From assembly GCA_001800315.1 (NCBI GenBank), contig MGVE01000009.1:11295-75294 (forward strand): DNA of 64,000 nt. Direction: 5' to 3'. Each line of letters begins with the position of its first letter. Positions within the stretch are counted from its first letter, which is position 1. The translations under genes were made by a program, and so were the position numbers. The notes beneath the pieces were generated by a model. The model was not told the origin of the DNA and did not search any database. It saw only the letters and a program-made list of their open reading frames with translations. This document shows positions 4,028 to 63,297 of this stretch, in pieces. Origin of the DNA: Elusimicrobia bacterium RIFOXYA2_FULL_47_53. GTDB taxonomy: Bacteria; Elusimicrobiota; Endomicrobiia; Endomicrobiales; XYA2-FULL-47-53.

Positions 4028-5056
4028 TTATTTTTGCCTCAATGCTTTTTTTATTTCTCCGGGCTTAAAAACCCCGTTCTCGGTTATTATGGCCGTTATC
4101 AGCCCGGCGGGCGTGACATCAAAAGCCGGGTGGCAGGCTATCGTGCCCTTGGGAGCTATGAGCCTGTCGTTTACATAAAGCACTTCCTTTACCGAACGCT
4201 CTTCTATGACTATCCTGCCGCCGTTTGAGGTTTTTGGGTCAATCGTTGAAACCGGCGCGGCCACATAAAATGGGACTTTATGGTATCTGGCAAGTATTGA
4301 CAGAGAGTAGGTGCCTATCTTGTTGGCGGCGTCGCCGTTGGCGGCTATGCGGTCGGCTCCGACTATAACAGCTCCAATCCCGCAGGTTTTCATAATGTGG
4401 CCCGCCATATTGTCGGTCAAAAGCCTGTAAGGAATCTTCTCCTGTTTCATTTCCCACGCGGTGAGCCTGGCTCCCTGAAGATAGGGGCGGGTTTCATCAA
4501 CATATACCAATTTAATTTTGCCCTGGCTGTAGGCGGAGCGGATAACTCCAAGAGCGGTGCCGTAACCGGCCGTCGCGAGAGCGCCCGCGTTGCAGTGGGT
4601 AATAACCATGGAATTTTTCTTAAGAAGCGCGGCGCCGTAGCTCCCGATCCTTTTGTTTACAGAAATATCTTCGTCGTAGACCTCAAGAGCCTCCCTGACA
4701 AGCCGGGACTTGAGCCCCTCGGGAGTTCCCGAGAAACCGTCCACGATATCTTCAATTCTCTTAAGGGCCCAGAAAAGATTAACGGCTGTCGGCCGGCTTG
4801 AGGCAAGCCTTCCGGCGGCTTTCAAAAGATAGGATTTCATGGCCGAAAGAGACTTAAAATCTTTTTCAAGCGCCGCGAGCGCCATGCCAAACGCCGCCGC
4901 CACGCCAATAGCGGGCGCGCCGCGGATAATCATATCCTTAATGGCACGGTAAACGGATTCATAATTCCCGCATTCCACATAGCGTATCCTGGAAGGCAGG
5001 AGCAGCTGGTTTAATATGTATACTCTGTTGTTTTTCCAATAAAGCGTTCTTATCAT
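4028..5056 (-). CDS. mtnA: Methylthioribose-1-phosphate isomerase (eIF-2B alpha/beta/delta-like family)
   Basis: 342 aa with full-length MtnA-like sequence ([13 protein letters not shown]..., [18 protein letters not shown]). Confidence 0.88.
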
Positions 5057-11846: not shown

Positions 11847-12374
11847 TTATGCGTTCCTCCGGAATAAATCCCCGCCGGCCGCGTCGTTCGCGACTATGAC
11901 GGGAAAATCAACGACTTCAAATTTATAAACCGCTTCGGGGCCCAGGTCCTCAAAAGCCACCACCTCGGATTTTTTGACTTTTGAAGACAACAAAGCCGCC
12001 ACGCCGCCAGTCGCGGCAAGATACACGGCGCCGAACTCTTTTAAGGCGTCTCTTACTTCCTGCGCTCTCGGTCCCTTGCCAATTGAAGCTTTAAGCCCCA
12101 TTGACAAAAGTTTTGGCGTAAACTTATCCATCCGCGAAGAGGTGGTGGGGCCGCAGGGGCCGGCGGCACTTCCGGGCTTTGCCGGAGCGGGGCCGCAATA
12201 ATATATTATGGATTTCTCCATGTCAACGGGAAGAGGCCTGCCGCTTTCAATAAGCCCCATGAAGCGCTTGTGAGCGGCGTCACGGGCGGTATAGATGATA
12301 CCGCTTAATAAAATTTTATCTCCGGCTTTTAACTGCGCGGCTTTTGATATTAACTGTTCGGTTGTCAGGTTCAT
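11847..12374 (-). CDS. Class I (Fe-S) fumarate hydratase / tartrate dehydratase, beta subunit
   Basis: 175 aa. GPTTSSRMD and ATGGVAALL are typical of the FumA C-terminal/TtdB family. Confidence 0.88.
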   Translation of the reverse strand: MNLTTEQLISKAAQLKAGDKILLSGIIYTARDAAHKRFMGLIESGRPLPVDMEKSIIYYCGPAPAKPGSAAGPCGPTTSSRMDKFTPKLLSMGLKASIGKGPRAQEVRDALKEFGAVYLAATGGVAALLSSKVKKSEVVAFEDLGPEAVYKFEVVDFPVIVANDAAGGDLFRRNA

Positions 12375-12510
12375 GATAGTATTAAATTAACTCTTTGTGT
12401 ACTCCCTTGACAAAAACATAAAATTCTGCTAATTTCATATTGACGAGTAAGTCCTTGTGCGTGGGGTTCCGTATGGTTCCTCGTAAATAGCGCTCAAGGC
12501 TTTGTCATTT

Positions 12511-13149
12511 TCAGGCAAACAGCGATTTTTCTTCCCTCACCTTGTCGGAAATAATTTTGTAATACGAATCATCTTTTTTTTCAATCTTCCTGAATACAGC
12601 CCAGCAAACGAAATCCACTATCTGTAGGCATTTTTCCTGCGAAGGAGTCCGTATTTCAATTGAAATCATACGCTGATGATTTGAATTTATCTGTTTGTTC
12701 AGATACTCCTTAAAATTCTCATTAAGAAATTTGTTTGTTTCTCTTTTTGACGCTATCAGGGTAATATTATCCAGAGGTATTAGTTTTTTCGTGTAAATCC
12801 TGTCCAACAAGATATTTACAACATAATTGTAAAAAACATGCTTCTCATTATGAAACCTTGTGTATACCTTTTTTTTGTCAAGATAAATTGAAATTATTGA
12901 CACATCTTTTTGAGCCAGCAAAGAAAGCAATCGTTCTCTTGTTTTTGGGTGTTCCTTAACACAATGCAACACTCCGCTGTGATGTCTTATCTCTTTATTG
13001 CTTAAAATAGAAAATACTTTTTTAACTATTTTCTCAACAGGCCTTTTATCATTAACAAAGAGACAGGAAACAACAAAATAATGCGATGTTTTAACCTTAT
13101 CAAAATCAAAGCCCAAATCACCACTTTCATCCAGAAAAATATACGACAA
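12511..13149 (-). CDS. DUF3800-like protein (uncharacterised), AT-rich insertion between the fumarase subunits
   Basis: 212 aa. N-terminal YIFLDESGDLGF (DUF3800-type DE motif). TTG start with GGGGGGA 5 nt upstream. Sample lines give ~30-40% GC versus ~50% in the flanks. Confidence 0.65.
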   Translation of the reverse strand: MSYIFLDESGDLGFDFDKVKTSHYFVVSCLFVNDKRPVEKIVKKVFSILSNKEIRHHSGVLHCVKEHPKTRERLLSLLAQKDVSIISIYLDKKKVYTRFHNEKHVFYNYVVNILLDRIYTKKLIPLDNITLIASKRETNKFLNENFKEYLNKQINSNHQRMISIEIRTPSQEKCLQIVDFVCWAVFRKIEKKDDSYYKIISDKVREEKSLFA

Positions 13150-13167
13150 GCTATCCCCCCAACGCTG

Positions 13168-14007
13168 TCAAATTATTCCCGTTATCCTTCTGCAGGAGTG
13201 GCACTGCATGCTTACCGCGACCGGCAGAGAGGCTATGTGGCAGGGAGCCGGCTCTATGTGCACGGCCAGGGCCGTTGTCCTGCCGCCCAGGCCCATGGGG
13301 CCGATACCCAGTTCGTTAATATCTTTTAGAAGTTCTTTTTCTTTTGCCTCGTAGCCAGCGTTTTTGGCTCCGGAACCGATTTCGCGCAGGAGGGCTTTCT
13401 TTGCCAGCTTCGCCACACCGGAAAAACTTCCTCCGATACCAACACCGACTACAAGCGGCGGACAGGAGTTGACTCCCTTTTCCCTGATCAGCTCAAGAAT
13501 AAAATCCTTTATGTCCTGCCAGGAAGCCGAGGGCGTGAACATTTTAAGGGCGCTGGCATTTTCACTGCCGCCGCCCTTTGGCAGAATGGTTATCTCTATT
13601 TTTTCGCCAGGCGCGGAATCAATATACAACTGGACCGGAGTGTTGTTCAAAGTGTTTTTTCTCTCAAAGGGGTCATTGACTATTGATGTCCTGAGATAGC
13701 CGCCGGTGTACCCCTGCGCGACGCCATTATTGACAGCCTCTTCCAAAGTGCCGCCGGTTACCGCGACGCCGCCCCCAAGCTTAATAAAAACCTCCGCGAT
13801 ACCGGTGTCCTGGCAAAGAGCGATCTCATTTTTCGTGGCGCTCCGGGCGTTTTGCAGAATTTCGCCTAAAATGTCGCGGGCCGATCCGTTTTCTTTCTGA
13901 TAGGCGGCCTCTATTGAGCGCCAGACATCCCCGGGCAGAAAATAATTCGCCTGCTGGCAAAGTTTCGCCACGGCTTCGGATATTTTTTTAGCTTCCACCT
14001 GCCTCAT
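13168..14007 (-). CDS. Class I (Fe-S) fumarate hydratase / tartrate dehydratase, alpha subunit
   Basis: 279 aa. ALCQDTGIAEVF and cluster cysteines are consistent with the FumA N-terminal/TtdA family. Confidence 0.88.
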   Translation of the reverse strand: MRQVEAKKISEAVAKLCQQANYFLPGDVWRSIEAAYQKENGSARDILGEILQNARSATKNEIALCQDTGIAEVFIKLGGGVAVTGGTLEEAVNNGVAQGYTGGYLRTSIVNDPFERKNTLNNTPVQLYIDSAPGEKIEITILPKGGGSENASALKMFTPSASWQDIKDFILELIREKGVNSCPPLVVGVGIGGSFSGVAKLAKKALLREIGSGAKNAGYEAKEKELLKDINELGIGPMGLGGRTTALAVHIEPAPCHIASLPVAVSMQCHSCRRITGII

Positions 14008-35874: not shown

Positions 35875-37179
35875 TTAATAAGCTCCATTAATATAAAACA
35901 ATTTACTCCTATTTTGATTAAAAGCGGTCTCGTAAGTAATAATTGAAGAACCATTGTCTGATGATTGAAAAACGCTACACAATCCAGCAAGATTTACCGA
36001 CCATATTTCCTCTCCACTTATATCGTACATTTCAATAACACTGCCTACGCTCTTAGATTTTACTGGATACTTTAACACAACAACATTTTTATCTTCTAAT
36101 GTTAAGAGATAATTGCCATTTATTTCATACCTAAAATCATTGTTATCAATTTTAGTCAAAATGCTTTCATTTTTATTTAGAATCAATATCTTCTCATTTA
36201 CCCCTCTTTTATCAATATTTTTATTTGCTTCAAATGATGTAAGATAATGTTTTCCCAGTCTATAACGAGTTTCATCAATCGGAGAAATAAAAGTTTCTCC
36301 TTTAAAATATGTCTTCTTTTTTTTCGATGTTTTTTCAACCAATATTCTCTTTTTGCCAATTTCGTATACTCTAAACACCCATTCCCGAGAATGCAGTTTT
36401 GGGGAGTCAAATATTGAACTGTCTATACTTGACAGATAGTTACCATTTACTTCGGAAATAATTCCAGCAACACTCATCACAACGCTTTTATCAATTGCAT
36501 ACAAATCACTATCTTTGATTATATATCGCCCATCTTTTGACATCCATGCCTGACTCTTAACATCTTTCCTATTTATTTTCCATAAAATATCACCTTTTGA
36601 ATTTAATAAATAATAATCGTCTTTCGGATCGCCAGATTCAGCAAGAACAGGGCTAATAAATATGTGTTTTCCATCCGGCGAAATAGCAGGATTACCCATT
36701 AAATCCAAAGACCACAACAAATCACCTTTTTCAGTAAAGAATAGTACTTTCCTTACATATCTTTCATCAAATATTTTCATTGACTTTTCTTCAACACTTC
36801 CAACCATTCTTGATTCTTGGACAATCTCACTCACTGTACATGCAACATATGCACCGTTTTTACTTATGACTGCATTGCTAATTACATAAACACCAGTCGA
36901 GTTTTTGTACTCAAATTCCCAAAGAACATTGCGATGACTATCCATTGCAATCAATTTACTACCGAAATAAGTGTTTTTCGTGCCACTATAATACATATCA
37001 TCTTTTATTGAATTAAATTGAGGTTCTATTGACACAAGGATCTTTGTTCCATCGCCACTAATTCCCATGGCATTAATTCGCGAAGGAAATTCTTTTTCCC
37101 ACAATATCCTCTCCGCAGAAAAAGCGCAAAAAGGCATACCAAAAATAAACACAAACAGTAAAAACGATTTCATTTTCAT
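35875..37179 (-). CDS. Secreted beta-propeller-like repeat protein (PQQ/BamB- or TolB-like repeats), uncharacterised
   Basis: 434 aa. Signal peptide ...FCAFSA and repeated S.DG..I / GD.LW motifs (ISGDGTKILVS, ISKNGAYVAC, ISPDGKHIFIS, MSKDGRYIIK). SD AGAGGAG. Very AT-rich. Confidence 0.55.
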   Translation of the reverse strand: MKMKSFLLFVFIFGMPFCAFSAERILWEKEFPSRINAMGISGDGTKILVSIEPQFNSIKDDMYYSGTKNTYFGSKLIAMDSHRNVLWEFEYKNSTGVYVISNAVISKNGAYVACTVSEIVQESRMVGSVEEKSMKIFDERYVRKVLFFTEKGDLLWSLDLMGNPAISPDGKHIFISPVLAESGDPKDDYYLLNSKGDILWKINRKDVKSQAWMSKDGRYIIKDSDLYAIDKSVVMSVAGIISEVNGNYLSSIDSSIFDSPKLHSREWVFRVYEIGKKRILVEKTSKKKKTYFKGETFISPIDETRYRLGKHYLTSFEANKNIDKRGVNEKILILNKNESILTKIDNNDFRYEINGNYLLTLEDKNVVVLKYPVKSKSVGSVIEMYDISGEEIWSVNLAGLCSVFQSSDNGSSIITYETAFNQNRSKLFYINGAY

Positions 37180-42267: not shown

Positions 42268-43629
42268 TTAGCCCTTTAGCTTGTATATAGTTCCCCGACC
42301 GGTTACCCCTACCCTGACAAGAACTTGCTTGCTAACCATATCTTTTAGGTCAATAGTAGCCATAGGTTTTGAAATATCCGTCAATTCTTGATATTGCTTA
42401 TTCGTTATCTTTCCTTTTTCTTTAACATAGGCGACAGCTTTTATCTGTCTTTCGTTAAGGCCAAGCTTTTGCAAGTTCTCTTCAGTATGGGTGTCCTTTG
42501 AGAATGTTATCTGAAAGCCTTTTTGGCGTTCTTTTATGGCCGGGATAGGAACTTCTGCATCGTTGCATAGATGAACCATTTTACCTATACCGCTCCCCCA
42601 CTGTTCAATGAATTCAATGTCAAAGAAGACCTTTGCAATTCCCTTGTTTCGTGTATCGGAATCATGCGTCTTAAATAAATCTTCTACGGAAACATTAGGT
42701 GCTAATCCTCCGGGATTCCATATCTCAAGCCGGTCATCGTGTATTCGTACGCTTATATTGGAAGAAACGAGATAATCTCTGTGACATACGGCATTGATAA
42801 GAGCTTCCCTAATAGCGTCAAGCGGATAATCCCAAACATTTTTACGCCGCGGCTCGCCAGTCATTACAAATTTAACGCTTATGTTCTTTTTGATAAAATC
42901 CATCGCCAAATCTACCTGGTCAATTAATGTTCCCTCAACCATGTCATCATCAATTACAAGCGACTCATTCTTGAATCTTCCGCAATGGATTACTGCCTGT
43001 TGTACATACCTCATCGGACGCTTGCCAAAAAGAAGCAGGGCGGCCCAGGCAGGAACACCATCTTTGATAAACTCAAGTTTTTTCAATATCTCTAAGACAG
43101 TTTCATCTTTGGGGATTTTTCGGCGGCCGGTTTCATTGGCAGTATCTCTATATGCAAACACTTTTTTTTCATCTATGTCTTTTAAGGAATATCCTGCGGC
43201 TTGAGTTAAATCCCAGCTCATATCAAGCGACTTATAGTGCATATCGGCGATTTCTTGCGGGGTCATCAAGCGGTTGCTGTTCTTAACCCTTCTAAAGCAC
43301 TTACCCTTAATAGCTACGGGCTTAATGGGGCATTCTTTAATAGTGATAACTGCGATGATTTTATTGTCAACGGTAAGTTGCTCTACATCGGGGATTACGC
43401 GGGGATTGCTTGCTTGGGTGATCTGGTTTATCCAATCGTTTATGGTTTCTTTGCCAATCTGAATTCCTTTTATTGTGCCATTGTCTGAGACACCTACTAT
43501 AATGGTACCGCCTTTGGAATTAGAAAACGCCCCGGCAGTTTCTACGGCCTCTCTGTCGAAGCTTTCTTTGAAGTCCAATGTCTCGGACTCACCCTTGCTA
43601 ATGATTACTTTAAGTTCTTCCGGTGTCAT
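42268..43629 (-). CDS. AlbA_2 (Schlafen-like) + HATPase_c_4 + wHTH protein (often annotated RecG-like putative DNA-binding protein)
   Basis: 453 aa. GESETLDFKESF...AFSNSKGGTIIVGV (AlbA_2), REALINAVCHRDY...RLEIWNPGGL (HATPase_c_4-like), and a C-terminal wHTH. The sampled line gives ~38% GC. Confidence 0.75.
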   Translation of the reverse strand: MTPEELKVIISKGESETLDFKESFDREAVETAGAFSNSKGGTIIVGVSDNGTIKGIQIGKETINDWINQITQASNPRVIPDVEQLTVDNKIIAVITIKECPIKPVAIKGKCFRRVKNSNRLMTPQEIADMHYKSLDMSWDLTQAAGYSLKDIDEKKVFAYRDTANETGRRKIPKDETVLEILKKLEFIKDGVPAWAALLLFGKRPMRYVQQAVIHCGRFKNESLVIDDDMVEGTLIDQVDLAMDFIKKNISVKFVMTGEPRRKNVWDYPLDAIREALINAVCHRDYLVSSNISVRIHDDRLEIWNPGGLAPNVSVEDLFKTHDSDTRNKGIAKVFFDIEFIEQWGSGIGKMVHLCNDAEVPIPAIKERQKGFQITFSKDTHTEENLQKLGLNERQIKAVAYVKEKGKITNKQYQELTDISKPMATIDLKDMVSKQVLVRVGVTGRGTIYKLKG

Positions 43630-62531: not shown

Positions 62532-62717
62532 CTAAAAGCCTTTTTCCTTTAATTTAAACCATGCCTTCCTGCTCTTTTCCGGCATAGTATTAAAAAGAAA
62601 ATCATTAAGTTTCTGCATTTCAGCTAACCGTTGCTCCGGAGTCAACGATAAACAGCGTTTAATATATTCCTTATCAACGAGTTGTCCGCCTCTATTATTT
62701 GCCTTTTTTGCTGGCAT
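62532..62717 (-). CDS. Small helical protein, partner of the nucleotidyltransferase (uncharacterised)
   Basis: About 61 aa from the ATG at 62717 (MPAKKANNRGG...TPEQRLAEMQKLNDFL...). Overlaps the NTase stop by 23 nt. Confidence 0.45.
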   Translation of the reverse strand: MPAKKANNRGGQLVDKEYIKRCLSLTPEQRLAEMQKLNDFLFNTMPEKSRKAWFKLKEKGF

Positions 62718-63195
62718 TGATAATCTCCTTAAGCGCCTCAACATCCGAGAGGTCACGGACACGGCCGGCATGAACCTTTAACCTGATAAGGTCTTCTATT
62801 GAAACAACGGGAACTTTTACACCCTGGTTCATCAGAGTAACTCGCTTTTCATATGCTTTATTGAAATCAATGAACTCTTCTATCATTATATCAATGCCTT
62901 CCATTTCGTTCTTGGGATTATACACGGAAAACACAATCATCCCTTTCTCTTTAATCCATTTGCCTCGTTTACTTTTATCGGCAAAATCATGGATATTAAC
63001 CGGAACTCTGGGCTTAAAACCAAGCTCCTGAAACAGTTGCATTAATTTGCCGACATTCTCATCGCTCATACGGAGCATAATATCAAGATCTGATGTCGCG
63101 CGAACGAAACCATATAAATTGACCGCTATCCCGCCGGCAACGAGGTATTTTATATCTCTTTTGTTAAGTTCGCTAAATATTCTTTTAAAGTCCAT
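62695..63195 (-). CDS. Pol-beta-superfamily nucleotidyltransferase (DUF2204/DUF6036/AbiEii-like minimal NTase)
   Basis: From the ATG at 63195: MDFKRIFSELNKRDIKYLVAGGIAVNLYGFVRATSDLDIML, which gives a GG...G..R.T.D.D NTase motif. The sampled line gives ~33% GC. Confidence 0.6.
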   Translation of the reverse strand: MDFKRIFSELNKRDIKYLVAGGIAVNLYGFVRATSDLDIMLRMSDENVGKLMQLFQELGFKPRVPVNIHDFADKSKRGKWIKEKGMIVFSVYNPKNEMEGIDIMIEEFIDFNKAYEKRVTLMNQGVKVPVVSIEDLIRLKVHAGRVRDLSDVEALKEIINASKKGK

Positions 63196-63297
63196 ATACC
63201 CGACCTGTTTCGTGACTACATACTTTATTAACAGCTCGCCAGTTTTCCACCTCCGAGGAATCCATTCGGCTGCCTCGGAGGTGTTCGGCGGCAAACT

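What the first reader, a model, noticed from the sequence alone, without database searches (positions are those of the whole stretch)
12375..13167. AT-rich DUF3800 gene inserted between the alpha and beta subunits of the fumarase
The two fumarase subunit genes are normally adjacent. Here a 212-aa DUF3800-like ORF (YIFLDESGD motif) sits between them, 18 nt after the alpha-subunit stop and 136 nt before the beta-subunit start. Hand counts on sample lines give ~30-40% GC for the insert against ~50% for both flanks. This pattern suggests a horizontally acquired single-gene cargo that must be co-transcribed with a central-metabolism operon. DUF3800 has no established function. The insert is one of three compositionally foreign islets in this window, which makes an accessory role plausible (selfish, abortive-infection or defence), but that role is unproven.
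Basis: partly seen in the sequence, partly recalled or inferred. Interest (0 to 1): 0.55.

Follow-up and report, generated by a model that had tools for sequence, protein, structure and literature searches.

The report
Nuclease gene with partner small RNA
The AT-rich gene that splits the fumarase operon is half of a widespread two-part cassette, an RNase H-like nuclease plus a conserved 70-nt structured RNA missing from the RNA-family catalogue, which looks like a toxin-antidote or defence module but is functionally untested.

Summary
A 212-aa DUF3800 ORF (12511-13149, minus strand, 32.6% GC) lies between the fumarase alpha and beta genes (52-53% GC), with gaps of 18 and 136 nt.

The 136-nt "spacer" is not empty. 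On the opposite strand it carries a sigma70-type promoter and a ~70-nt structured RNA (12442-12511) that ends on the DUF3800 stop codon.

- **Pairing:** the RNA sits in this position in all 80 related loci fetched, from at least 15 phyla.
- **Structure:** 97.8% of cells pair, and 13 of 21 pairs show compensatory changes.
- **Catalogue:** no Rfam family reaches its threshold on it. Its layout matches the DUF3800-V RNA, and the window copy weakly resembles DUF3800-III.
- **Protein:** the model resembles archaeal RNase HII.
- **Fumarase link:** incidental. Syntenic relatives have empty junctions, and one carries a different insert.
- **Age:** the insertion is old. The three fumarase-linked copies form a clade, yet they stay AT-rich.
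- **Context elsewhere:** the cassette often sits inside restriction-modification operons, for example hsdS-cassette-hsdR.
- **Asymmetry:** intact RNA occurs without the gene. The gene never occurred without the RNA.

Best reading (about 0.45): a nuclease-plus-antidote-RNA addiction or defence cassette. The function remains untested.

The parts
13168..14007 (-). Class I fumarate hydratase alpha subunit (the upstream host gene).
   Evidence: Pfam Fumerase E 6e-102; NCBIfam NF004885 at 359.5 bits.
13150..13167 (-). 18-nt junction carrying a purine-rich ribosome-binding stretch (GGGGGGA) ahead of the TTG start. No separate promoter was found, so DUF3800 is most likely read from the fumA transcript.
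   Evidence: Sequence; promoter scan. Upstream regions are not conserved among 83 loci.
12511..13149 (-). DUF3800 protein, 212 aa, a predicted RNase HII-like nuclease. The conserved acidic residues D7, E8, D116, E137 and the Q176xxD179 motif are all present.
   Evidence: Pfam PF12686; family alignment A1; AlphaFold2 model with pLDDT 84.4; Foldseek best hits are RNase HII 1eke and 3p83, E 2e-5 to 2e-4, TM 0.54-0.58.
12442..12511 (+). Structured small RNA of about 70 nt, convergent with DUF3800. P1 pairs 12442-12447 with 12501-12506. The UAAGU bulge is at 12448-12452. P2 pairs 12453-12461 with 12491-12499. The P3 hairpin pairs 12463-12470 with 12475-12482, with a UU/UU internal loop and the GUAU loop at 12471-12474. 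The junction GUAAAUAG is at 12483-12490. The U tract at 12508-12511 overlaps the DUF3800 stop codon (12511-12513).
   Evidence: Covariance model R1 scores 89.4 bits, E 5e-19, and this is the only hit in the 64-kb window. Covariation over 77 sequences. The strand is fixed by 221 G-U pairs against 10 on the other strand. Weak Rfam DUF3800-III hit at 12437-12511 on the plus strand, 21.7 bits.
12407..12435 (+). Promoter of the small RNA. The -35 TTGACA is at 12407-12412, followed by a 17-nt spacer ending in TGc (extended -10), and the -10 TAATTT is at 12430-12435. The predicted transcription start falls at the first base of P1.
   Evidence: Sequence. The same layout is conserved: 59 of 78 loci match the consensus at 9 or more of 12 positions, and the -10 ends 5-8 nt before P1 in 61 of 78. 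The generic scan missed the window's copy because its -10 matches only 3 of 6 positions.
12375..12406 (-). Non-conserved AT-rich leader between the cassette and the fumB start codon. It is not alignable with the relative L002.
   Evidence: No usable fumB promoter was found.
11847..12374 (-). Fumarate hydratase beta subunit (the downstream host gene). It must be transcribed through the cassette.
   Evidence: Pfam Fumerase_C E 2e-57. In empty-site relatives it starts 4-15 nt after fumA.

Best explanation
The insert is a self-contained two-gene cassette, and this part is shown. One gene encodes a DUF3800 protein with an RNase HII-like fold and an intact acidic active-site set. The other, tail-to-tail with it, encodes a ~70-nt structured RNA with its own sigma70-type promoter that is strong in most loci. 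That RNA starts at the base of its first helix and ends in a U tract lying on the protein's stop codon. The cassette is an accessory element that has moved between phyla. In this Elusimicrobia lineage it landed long ago between fumA and fumB, which appears to be a local insertion hotspot, and it has been kept there. How it works is inferred. The RNA binds and holds in check, or otherwise antagonises, the nuclease in the manner of a toxin-antidote pair. The abundant RNA keeps a weakly expressed nuclease latent. If RNA supply fails, for example through host transcription shut-off by a phage or loss of the locus, the nuclease is freed and damages nucleic acids. That would give either abortive-infection-type defence or plain addiction. 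In the window the nuclease has no detectable promoter of its own and would be read from the fumarase transcript. That transcript must also run on through the RNA gene, against its convergent promoter, to reach fumB.
For: Shown. (1) Obligate pairing from the protein side: all 80 loci found through the protein have exactly one RNA hit, always on the opposite strand directly after the stop codon, and none elsewhere in 465 kb. (2) The RNA is real: 97.8% of cells pair against at most 53% when partners are slid; 13 of 21 pairs carry compensatory changes; 0 of 500 shuffles reach the observed values; RNAalifold finds the same fold. (3) A conserved promoter, a start at P1 and a U-rich tail in 65 of 78 loci leave no room for a variable guide segment. 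(4) The fold resembles RNase HII and the DE...D...E...QxxD residues are conserved. Supporting the antidote and defence inference. (5) Asymmetry: a search starting from the RNA gave 57 loci with the gene, 3 with a divergent DUF3800, and about 16 with a full-scoring RNA (82-97 bits) and promoter but no intact gene. Five of those 16 keep only the last 17-46 codons, and one diversified group has a tyrosine recombinase gene in the gene's place. The gene was never seen without the RNA. (6) Neighbours are enriched for restriction-modification and other defence genes: upstream Methylase_S 4, N6_Mtase 4, N6_N4_Mtase 3 of 73; downstream ResIII 8, SWI2_SNF2 5, N6_Mtase 5, Eco57I 5, HSDR_N 3 of 72; PADLOC models mad2, MTase_I, REase_I, type IIG and PbeA. 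L011 and L024 read hsdS-cassette-hsdR. (7) The RNA promoter is near consensus while the protein gene has no conserved promoter, sometimes a non-ATG start, and GC3 below its neighbours in 69 of 79 loci. (8) From the literature: the DUF3800 domain is the predicted effector of type VII retrons and an accessory of some Cas12 and Cas13 loci, and other DUF3800 subfamilies each have their own RNA on either side and in either orientation. This favours a protein-RNA partnership over simple antisense control.
Against: There is no experiment on any DUF3800-RNA pair in the searchable literature. No PADLOC model matches the protein. Known RNA antitoxins of protein toxins (type III systems) are tandem repeats upstream of the toxin, not a single convergent gene. 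The RNA's loops are far more conserved than simple sequestration would seem to need, which hints at a more active role. The family is most frequent in small CPR genomes, and a third of the loci carry a DnaA box on the RNA promoter, which could point to a cell-cycle or housekeeping role. Genomes with solo RNAs could carry a DUF3800 gene elsewhere, since only a few kb were visible. The protein-first sample was the 80 best full-length hits, so protein-only loci among weaker hits are not excluded.
Confidence: 0.45

Rival explanations
1. Ribonucleoprotein enzyme. The RNA is a required cofactor, scaffold or specificity element of the nuclease, as in RNase P or the RNA partners of TnpB and IscB. The pair acts together on some nucleic-acid target, in defence or in housekeeping.
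For: Strict co-occurrence and co-conservation of the two genes. RNA loops and junctions are nearly invariant across phyla. The RNase H fold is shared with RNA-guided nucleases. Weinberg et al. judged DUF3800-I-type RNAs to have features of 'sophisticated biochemical function'.
Against: The transcript is bounded by its promoter and U tract and has no variable single-stranded segment that could act as a guide. Intact RNAs persist, with compensatory changes, where the gene is truncated or gone, which is unexpected for a mere cofactor. At 212 aa the protein has no extra domains for guide handling.
Confidence: 0.2
2. Cis-antisense control only. The convergent RNA regulates the DUF3800 mRNA, and here the fumA-DUF3800-fumB transcript, by base-pairing with its 3' part or by transcriptional interference, with no protein-RNA complex. 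This would resemble type I toxin-antitoxin systems.
For: The RNA gene is fully complementary to the mRNA region just after the stop codon, and the promoters converge. The known DUF3800-V RNA in L088 has the same tail-to-tail layout, 7 nt after the stop.
Against: Antisense function needs complementarity, not a conserved three-helix fold. Here 221 G-U pairs hold on the RNA strand only, and unpaired loops are invariant. Other DUF3800 RNAs lie on either side and strand of their gene. Solo RNAs are maintained without a target gene in cis.
Confidence: 0.12
3. The cassette is itself a mobile element. DUF3800, which has an RNase H-like fold as transposases and RuvC-type nucleases do, would catalyse insertion or homing, with the RNA assisting.
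For: The distribution across phyla and contexts is patchy. The fumA|fumB junction holds different inserts in different relatives. The cassette often sits inside operons with tiny gaps to the upstream gene.
Against: No terminal repeats, no target duplications and no conserved ends beyond the start codon and the RNA promoter were seen. There is a single copy per contig, and no near-identical copies were seen in different places. Family members are 53-88% identical to each other rather than recent copies. The three fumarase-linked copies form a clade, which fits vertical descent better than repeated homing.
Confidence: 0.08
4. One reading: a recently acquired single-gene cargo with a plain 136-nt spacer, or a protein with a role tied to fumarase.
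For: The low GC and the position inside the operon.
Against: The spacer encodes the conserved RNA and its promoter. A relative with flanks only 60-78% identical has the cassette at the same site. Empty junctions exist in syntenic relatives, and none of the other 80 genome-scan loci has a fumarase gene within its fetched flanks (up to 3 kb each side).
Confidence: 0.03

Closest known systems
DUF3800-associated RNA motifs DUF3800-I to -XI (Weinberg et al. 2017, PMC5737381; Rfam RF02962 DUF3800-III, RF02964 DUF3800-V, RF02968 DUF3800-IX, RF02969 DUF3800-I)
   Same: It is a covarying structured RNA encoded next to a DUF3800 gene. The recurrent UAA trinucleotide appears here in two internal loops, and a terminator-like U tract follows. 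DUF3800-V in L088 has the identical layout, on the opposite strand 7 nt after the stop codon. The window's copy gives a weak hit to DUF3800-III on the correct strand and span (21.7 bits).
   Different: No Rfam family reaches its gathering score on this element in the window or in 20 other loci, and a typical CPR copy (L035) gives no DUF3800-family hit even at E 10. It is therefore either an uncatalogued twelfth motif or a far variant of III. It belongs to a very conserved protein subfamily, 53-88% identical across phyla. The function of all these RNAs is unknown.
Type VII retrons (Mestre et al. 2020, PMC7736814)
   Same: A DUF3800 / RNase H2-like protein is paired with a dedicated non-coding nucleic acid in a presumed defence system.
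   Different: No reverse transcriptase gene lies next to the cassette here or in the examples annotated. The retron DUF3800 proteins lack the Q of QxxD, whereas this subfamily keeps it.
TPR-DUF3800 accessory proteins of Cas12a2/Cas12a3 and some type VI-F loci (PMC10910872, PMC12669027)
   Same: The same domain is predicted to be an RNase H-fold nuclease and sits in an RNA-based immune locus.
   Different: There is no TPR domain, no cas genes and no CRISPR array here. This is a stand-alone 212-aa protein with its own small RNA.
Latent nucleases embedded in type I restriction-modification operons, such as PrrC between hsdS and hsdR (from general knowledge, not tested here)
   Same: In L011 and L024 the cassette sits between hsdS and hsdR, the position prrC holds. 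The idea of a nuclease kept silent until infection is also shared.
   Different: The protein family is unrelated. Here the proposed silencer is an RNA encoded in the cassette, not the restriction enzyme. In the window the host operon is metabolic.
Type III toxin-antitoxin systems (ToxIN and similar) and RNA-controlled Abi systems such as AbiF of C. difficile (PMC12373285)
   Same: A protein nuclease is paired with a dedicated structured RNA antidote. The distribution is horizontally mobile and defence-linked.
   Different: Those antitoxin RNAs are tandem repeats upstream of the toxin on the same strand. Here there is a single RNA gene, convergent, with its own promoter.
Housekeeping RNase HII (rnhB)
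   Same: The overall fold (Foldseek TM 0.54-0.58 to 1eke and 3p83) and an N-terminal D-E-x-G motif on the first strand.
   Different: There is no sequence-level match to any PDB chain with the family profile and no NCBIfam hit. The gene is accessory and patchily distributed, and it has an RNA partner.

Membership tests
Pfam DUF3800 (PF12686) | Score above the curated gathering threshold over the whole profile. | tested here: met
   48.5 bits against 21, profile positions 1-149 of 149.
Pfam DUF3800 (PF12686) | N-terminal DE motif and C-terminal QxxD motif (as described in PMC7736814). | tested here: met
   D7 is invariant and E8 is conserved in at least 90% of sequences; Q176 and D179 are invariant in 29 sequences, and all four are present in the window.
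Pfam DUF3800 (PF12686) | RNase H-like fold. | tested here: met
   AlphaFold2 pLDDT 84.4. The top four Foldseek PDB hits are archaeal RNase HII chains, E 2e-5 to 2e-4.
DUF3800-associated RNA motifs (class of Weinberg 2017) | A conserved RNA secondary structure supported by covariation, encoded next to a DUF3800 gene. | tested here: met
   21 pairs, 13 with compensatory changes, 97.8% of cells paired, found in 80 of 80 loci.
DUF3800-associated RNA motifs (class of Weinberg 2017) | A match to one of the eleven published models (Rfam) at its gathering score. | tested here: not met
   No hit at gathering in the window or in 20 loci. The best is DUF3800-III at 21.7 bits against 43.8, and L035 gives nothing.
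Rfam RF02962 DUF3800-III | Gathering score of 43.8 bits. | tested here: not met
   21.7 bits, E 0.0096 in a 221-nt search. The strand and span are correct, so distant kinship is possible but membership is not shown.
Type III toxin-antitoxin system | Antitoxin RNA as tandem direct repeats upstream of the toxin gene on the same strand. | tested here: not met
   There is one RNA copy, downstream and convergent, in every locus.
Type III toxin-antitoxin system | The toxin is neutralised by direct binding of the RNA, and the toxin is harmful alone. | not testable with these tools
   Only indirect evidence is available: the gene is never seen without the RNA, while the RNA is sometimes seen alone.
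Type I toxin-antitoxin system | A small hydrophobic toxin peptide whose mRNA is bound by an antisense RNA. | tested here: not met
   The protein is a 212-aa soluble alpha/beta nuclease-like fold. The antisense overlap with the coding region is limited to the stop codon.
Type VII retron | A reverse transcriptase gene and msr-msd RNA adjacent to the DUF3800 protein. | tested here: not met
   The neighbours in the window are fumA, fumB, malic enzyme and CoaX. No reverse transcriptase appeared among the 25 most frequent neighbour families listed for each side.
Known anti-phage defence systems (PADLOC-DB v2) | A match of the protein to a model of a described system. | tested here: not met
   0 families at E up to 1.
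RNase HII (rnhB) | Sequence membership (NCBIfam or PDB sequence match). | tested here: not met
   No NCBIfam hit. The family profile finds no PDB chain at E up to 10. The similarity is at fold level only.

The most novel reading that the evidence does not exclude
This is a minimal, very widespread (at least 500 species-level genomes in at least 15 phyla, most often in CPR bacteria) protein-RNA toxin-antidote or immunity system of a new type. A single ~70-nt structured RNA, absent from Rfam, directly restrains an RNase HII-like nuclease. In CPR lineages the antidote's promoter carries a DnaA box, which would tie release of the nuclease to the state of chromosome replication. If true, this would also give the first functional handle on the whole set of DUF3800 RNAs, unexplained since 2017.
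Probability: 0.3. Interest if true: 0.8.

Novelty: new variant of a known kind. Interest (0 to 1): 0.62.

Why it matters
DUF3800 proteins and their eleven unrelated-looking partner RNAs have been an open puzzle since 2017. The domain also turns up as the presumed effector of type VII retrons and as an accessory of Cas12 and Cas13 loci.

This window leads to what may be the most conserved and most widespread DUF3800-RNA pair, and its RNA is not in Rfam. The pair comes with three new pieces of comparative evidence that can be tested at the bench:
- It is frequently nested inside restriction-modification operons.
- The gene never occurs without the RNA, while the RNA survives alone.
- In CPR bacteria a DnaA box sits at a fixed position on the RNA promoter.

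The cassette is about 750 bp, small enough to synthesise and test for toxicity, rescue, RNA binding and phage defence.

For genome annotation the lesson is practical. The "intergenic" 136 nt is a gene. Low GC here does not mean recent arrival.

Tried and rejected
- **Rfam at E up to 10 over 3 kb** found nothing at the site. Only a 221-nt search let the weak DUF3800-III hit through the filters.
- **Single-sequence folding** of the spacer on the gene's strand gave z = 0.02, so there is no thermodynamic signal. The RNA is visible only through comparison and lies on the other strand.
- **Fumarase-linked function** is rejected. Syntenic relatives have empty junctions, and no fumarase genes lie near the other 80 loci.
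- **Phage cargo** is rejected for this subfamily. IMG/VR holds only relatives at 29% identity or less, although phrog_9243 matches at E 4e-20.
- **DnaA boxes as a sign of oriC** is rejected. There is a single box at a fixed offset, and box density further out equals background.
- **Terminal repeats or target duplications** around the window's insert were not seen when it was compared with L002 and the empty sites.
- **The 233-aa ORF beside the DUF3800-IX RNA in L070** is not DUF3800-like (hhalign probability 0.2, no Pfam hit).
- **A PDB sequence search with the family profile** found nothing.
- **The supplement of the 2017 paper** is not held, so the published DUF3800-III description could not be read.
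- **Gain and loss order** at the junction could not be resolved. The six syntenic genomes are about equally distant from each other, at 65-70% identity.
Full report
**What is at the site.** The window is from an Elusimicrobia metagenome-assembled genome (GCA_001800235.1, contig MGUZ01000001).
- On the minus strand the gene order is malic enzyme, fumarase alpha (13168-14007), a 212-aa ORF (12511-13149), fumarase beta (11847-12374) and type III pantothenate kinase.
- The ORF matches Pfam DUF3800 over the whole profile (E 2e-12). It also matches phage family phrog_9243 (E 4e-20). It matches no PADLOC or NCBIfam model.
- The gaps are 18 and 136 nt.
- GC is 32.6% for the ORF (GC3 0.34), against 53% for fumA and 52.5% for fumB.

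**The 136-nt spacer is a gene.** A relative (L002) has flanking proteins only 60-78% identical to the window's. It carries a 71%-identical DUF3800 at the same junction. The first ~70 nt after the stop codon are about 95% identical between the two.

A genome scan with a family alignment found at least 505 relatives, and I kept 80 loci from at least 15 phyla. CPR/Patescibacteria dominate. Ignavibacteria, Bacteroidota, Omnitrophota, Nitrospirota, Syntrophia, Gammaproteobacteria, Actinomycetota and others are also represented. Every locus has the same element directly after the stop codon.

An alignment of 77 distinct copies supports a three-helix rod:
- P1 of 6 bp, followed by a UAA(A/G/U)U bulge.
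- P2 of 9 bp.
- A P3 hairpin with an internal loop.
- A (G/U)UAAAUAG junction. Two loci carry an extra hairpin inserted there.

The support is strong:
- 97.8% of cells pair, against at most 53% when partners are slid.
- 13 of 21 pairs carry compensatory changes.
- 0 of 500 shuffles reach the observed values, and RNAalifold predicts the same fold.
- The fold has 221 G-U pairs. These would be mismatches on the other strand, where pairing drops to 84.7%. The RNA is therefore on the strand opposite to DUF3800.
- A covariance model built from the alignment gives one hit in the window (12439-12518, plus strand, 89.4 bits). It gives exactly one hit per locus in the 80 loci.

**Transcript limits.** On the RNA strand, a TTGACA-17-TAnnnT promoter precedes the fold, often with an extended TG.
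- 59 of 78 loci match the consensus at 9 or more of 12 positions.
- The -10 ends 5-8 nt before the first base of P1 in 61 of 78 loci.
- 65 of 78 loci have a U-rich tail right after P1.
- In the window the -35 is at 12407-12412 and the -10 at 12430-12435.
- P1 begins at 12442, and the U tract (12508-12511) overlaps the stop codon.
- The RNA is thus a compact ~70-nt transcript with no variable guide-like extension.
- The DUF3800 side has no conserved upstream sequence. In the window only a ribosome-binding stretch separates it from fumA.

**Is the RNA known?** Weinberg et al. (2017) described eleven DUF3800-associated RNA motifs of unknown function.
- None reaches its gathering score on this element, in the window or in 20 other loci.
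- In a narrow search the window copy gives a sub-threshold DUF3800-III hit on the right strand and span (21.7 against 43.8 bits).
- A typical CPR copy gives no DUF3800-family hit at all.
- A bona fide DUF3800-V RNA in a viral contig has the same tail-to-tail layout, 7 nt after the stop codon. It also shares a UAAnnCC theme after its basal helix.
- I therefore file the RNA as an uncatalogued member of this class, possibly a far variant of III. It is not a member of any existing Rfam family.

**The protein.**
- The family is unusually conserved, with 53-88% pairwise identity and nearly all members 211-214 aa long.
- D7, D116, R117, E137, Q176 and D179 are invariant, and E8 is nearly so.
- The AlphaFold2 model (pLDDT 84.4) is most similar to archaeal RNase HII (1eke and 3p83; E 2e-5 to 2e-4, TM 0.54-0.58). 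Nothing else scores below E 0.07.
- This agrees with published predictions for retron- and Cas12-associated DUF3800 domains.
- There is no sequence-level match to solved structures.
- Assigning the acidic residues to a DEDD-type site is an inference from their positions on the fold.

**Relation to fumarase.** The link is incidental.
- Syntenic contigs from related Elusimicrobia keep the order MshE, GAF-HD, malic enzyme, fumA, fumB, CoaX. Three of them have fumA and fumB 4, 15 or 103 nt apart with no insert.
- A fourth carries a different 186-aa ORF at the same junction. That ORF is 25% GC, has no Pfam match and is flanked by inverted repeats.
- The junction is therefore a local insertion hotspot.
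- The six genomes are about equally distant from each other (65-70% identity), so the order of gains and losses cannot be read.
- The three fumarase-linked DUF3800 proteins (window, P0002, P0003) are each other's best hits and form a clade. This favours one old insertion followed by descent and losses.
- The window and L002 copies nevertheless have among the largest GC3 deficits in the family (0.34 and 0.26, against 0.53-0.60 in the flanks). Family-wide, DUF3800 GC3 is below that of its neighbours in 69 of 79 loci, with a median deficit of 0.065.
- Low GC here is a persistent property of the gene, not a clock for arrival. I have no tested explanation for this.

**Contexts elsewhere.**
- The cassette usually lies co-directionally inside gene arrays (56 of 73 upstream and 60 of 72 downstream neighbours on the same strand). 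It often sits within 45 nt of the upstream gene or overlaps it.
- Immediate neighbours are strongly enriched for restriction-modification and related defence genes.
  - Upstream: Methylase_S 4, N6_Mtase 4, N6_N4_Mtase 3, and one AbiEii-type ATPase.
  - Downstream: ResIII 8, SWI2_SNF2 5, N6_Mtase 5, Eco57I 5, HSDR_N 3.
  - PADLOC models on the downstream neighbours: mad2 6, MTase_I 4, REase_I 3, type IIG 3, PbeA 4.
- L011 and L024 read hsdS-cassette-hsdR. Other examples sit beside SNF2/PLD helicases, MmeI-type methylases and a Gp49/HigB-like gene.
- The remaining neighbours are ordinary housekeeping genes, as in the window.
- These family counts can overlap within a protein, so "roughly a fifth to a third of loci" is an estimate.
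- Viral contigs hold only distant relatives, at 29% identity or less.

**Asymmetry between the partners.** I searched metagenomes with the RNA core alone.
- Of the loci with room for the gene, 57 have a close DUF3800 in the expected place, and three have a divergent one (24-39% identity).
- About 16 have no intact gene. Five of these retain only the last 17-46 codons.
- A diversified group of contigs has a tyrosine recombinase gene where DUF3800 should be.
- These solo RNAs score as high as the paired ones (82-97 bits) and keep their promoters.
- In the protein-first set the gene never lacks the RNA.
- This is the pattern expected if the protein is harmful without the RNA and the RNA is harmless, or useful, alone.
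- Two caveats apply. Only a few kb around each solo RNA were visible, and the protein-first set was the 80 best hits.

**Mechanism.**
- **Shown:** a conserved gene pair consisting of a nuclease-like protein and a structured, independently transcribed RNA.
- **Inferred, about 0.45:** the RNA is an antidote or governor of the nuclease, and the pair acts as an addiction or abortive-infection-type defence cassette. The evidence is the partner asymmetry, the contrast between a strong RNA promoter and a weakly signalled protein gene, the restriction-modification contexts, and the domain's presence in retron and CRISPR systems.
- **Rivals:** an obligate ribonucleoprotein enzyme (0.2); pure antisense control (0.12); a self-mobile element (0.08).
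- **No experimental work** on any DUF3800-RNA pair was found.

**Consequence for the host operon (inference).**
- DUF3800 is probably translated from the fumA transcript.
- fumB now lies 136 nt further away, behind a convergent promoter, and must be reached by read-through.
- No convincing fumB promoter was found.
- The arrangement has evidently been tolerated for a long time.

**Verdict.** It is a new variant of a known but unexplained kind.

Noticed in passing
Loci L005, L007, L023, L025, L028, L033, L035, L038, L049, L050, L060-L063, L065, L071, L074, L078, L082 and others; absent at window 12375-12406: In 26 of 79 loci, almost all CPR/Patescibacteria, a DnaA box (17 perfect, 9 with one mismatch; TTATCCACA or its complement) lies 45-63 nt upstream of P1, just 5' of the RNA promoter's -35, in either orientation. 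Background density is 0.35 boxes per kb, and no box clusters lie further out. It therefore looks like part of the cassette (DnaA-controlled RNA promoter) rather than proximity to oriC.
   Followed up: partly
L087:2843-3500 and L086:3398-3500 (same fumA|fumB junction in relatives): One relative has an unrelated 186-aa ORF between fumA and fumB. It is 25% GC, has no Pfam match and is flanked by inverted repeats (AGCGTAGAGCGTATAGC / GCTATACGCTCTACGCT). Another has a 103-nt spacer made of TAAGTTC-like tandem repeats. The junction appears to be an insertion hotspot in this clade.
   Followed up: partly
window 42268-43629 (-), 62695-63294 (-), 35875-37179 (-): The other AT-rich islets encode a Schlafen AlbA_2 + HATPase_c_4 protein, an AbiEii/DUF6036-type nucleotidyltransferase (a type IV toxin-like family), and a 434-aa protein with no Pfam match and a hydrophobic N-terminus. 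Two of the three are also defence or toxin-type accessory genes.
   Followed up: partly
L191, L194, L225, L228 (fragments in L192 and L201): A diversified set of metagenome contigs has an intact RNA and promoter, a few remnant codons of the DUF3800 3' end, and then a tyrosine recombinase (Phage_integrase, E 2e-32) in place of the nuclease gene. An integrative element may have used the 3' end of DUF3800 as its attachment site.
   Followed up: partly
L202:850-1142: Two RNA copies lie in tandem (79 and 49 bits). The weaker one is directly beside a divergent DUF3800 (39% identity). This suggests cassettes of different subfamilies stacking, or one replacing another.
   Followed up: no
L070:5204-5275 (-): A bona fide DUF3800-IX RNA (62.7 bits) lies 1.5 kb downstream of the cassette's own RNA. 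The ORF between them (4338-5039) is not DUF3800-like.
   Followed up: partly
L013:959-1046 and L048:3631-3730: Two copies of the RNA carry an extra GC-rich hairpin inserted in the junction between P3 and P2. This optional stem is typical of functional structured RNAs.
   Followed up: no
L045, L064, L067, L070, L073, L082 (upstream of DUF3800): In several CPR loci a TATAAT-like hexamer ends only 7-10 nt before the DUF3800 ATG, suggesting leaderless or near-leaderless mRNAs. In other loci the gene overlaps or abuts the upstream gene.
   Followed up: no
Window 12511-13149 and L002:4001-4642: The cassette has apparently been resident since before the two lineages diverged (flanking proteins 60-78% identical), yet its GC3 remains 0.26-0.34 against 0.53-0.60 in the flanks. 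This is unexplained. Possible causes are selection for low expression, or replacement by recombination.
   Followed up: partly
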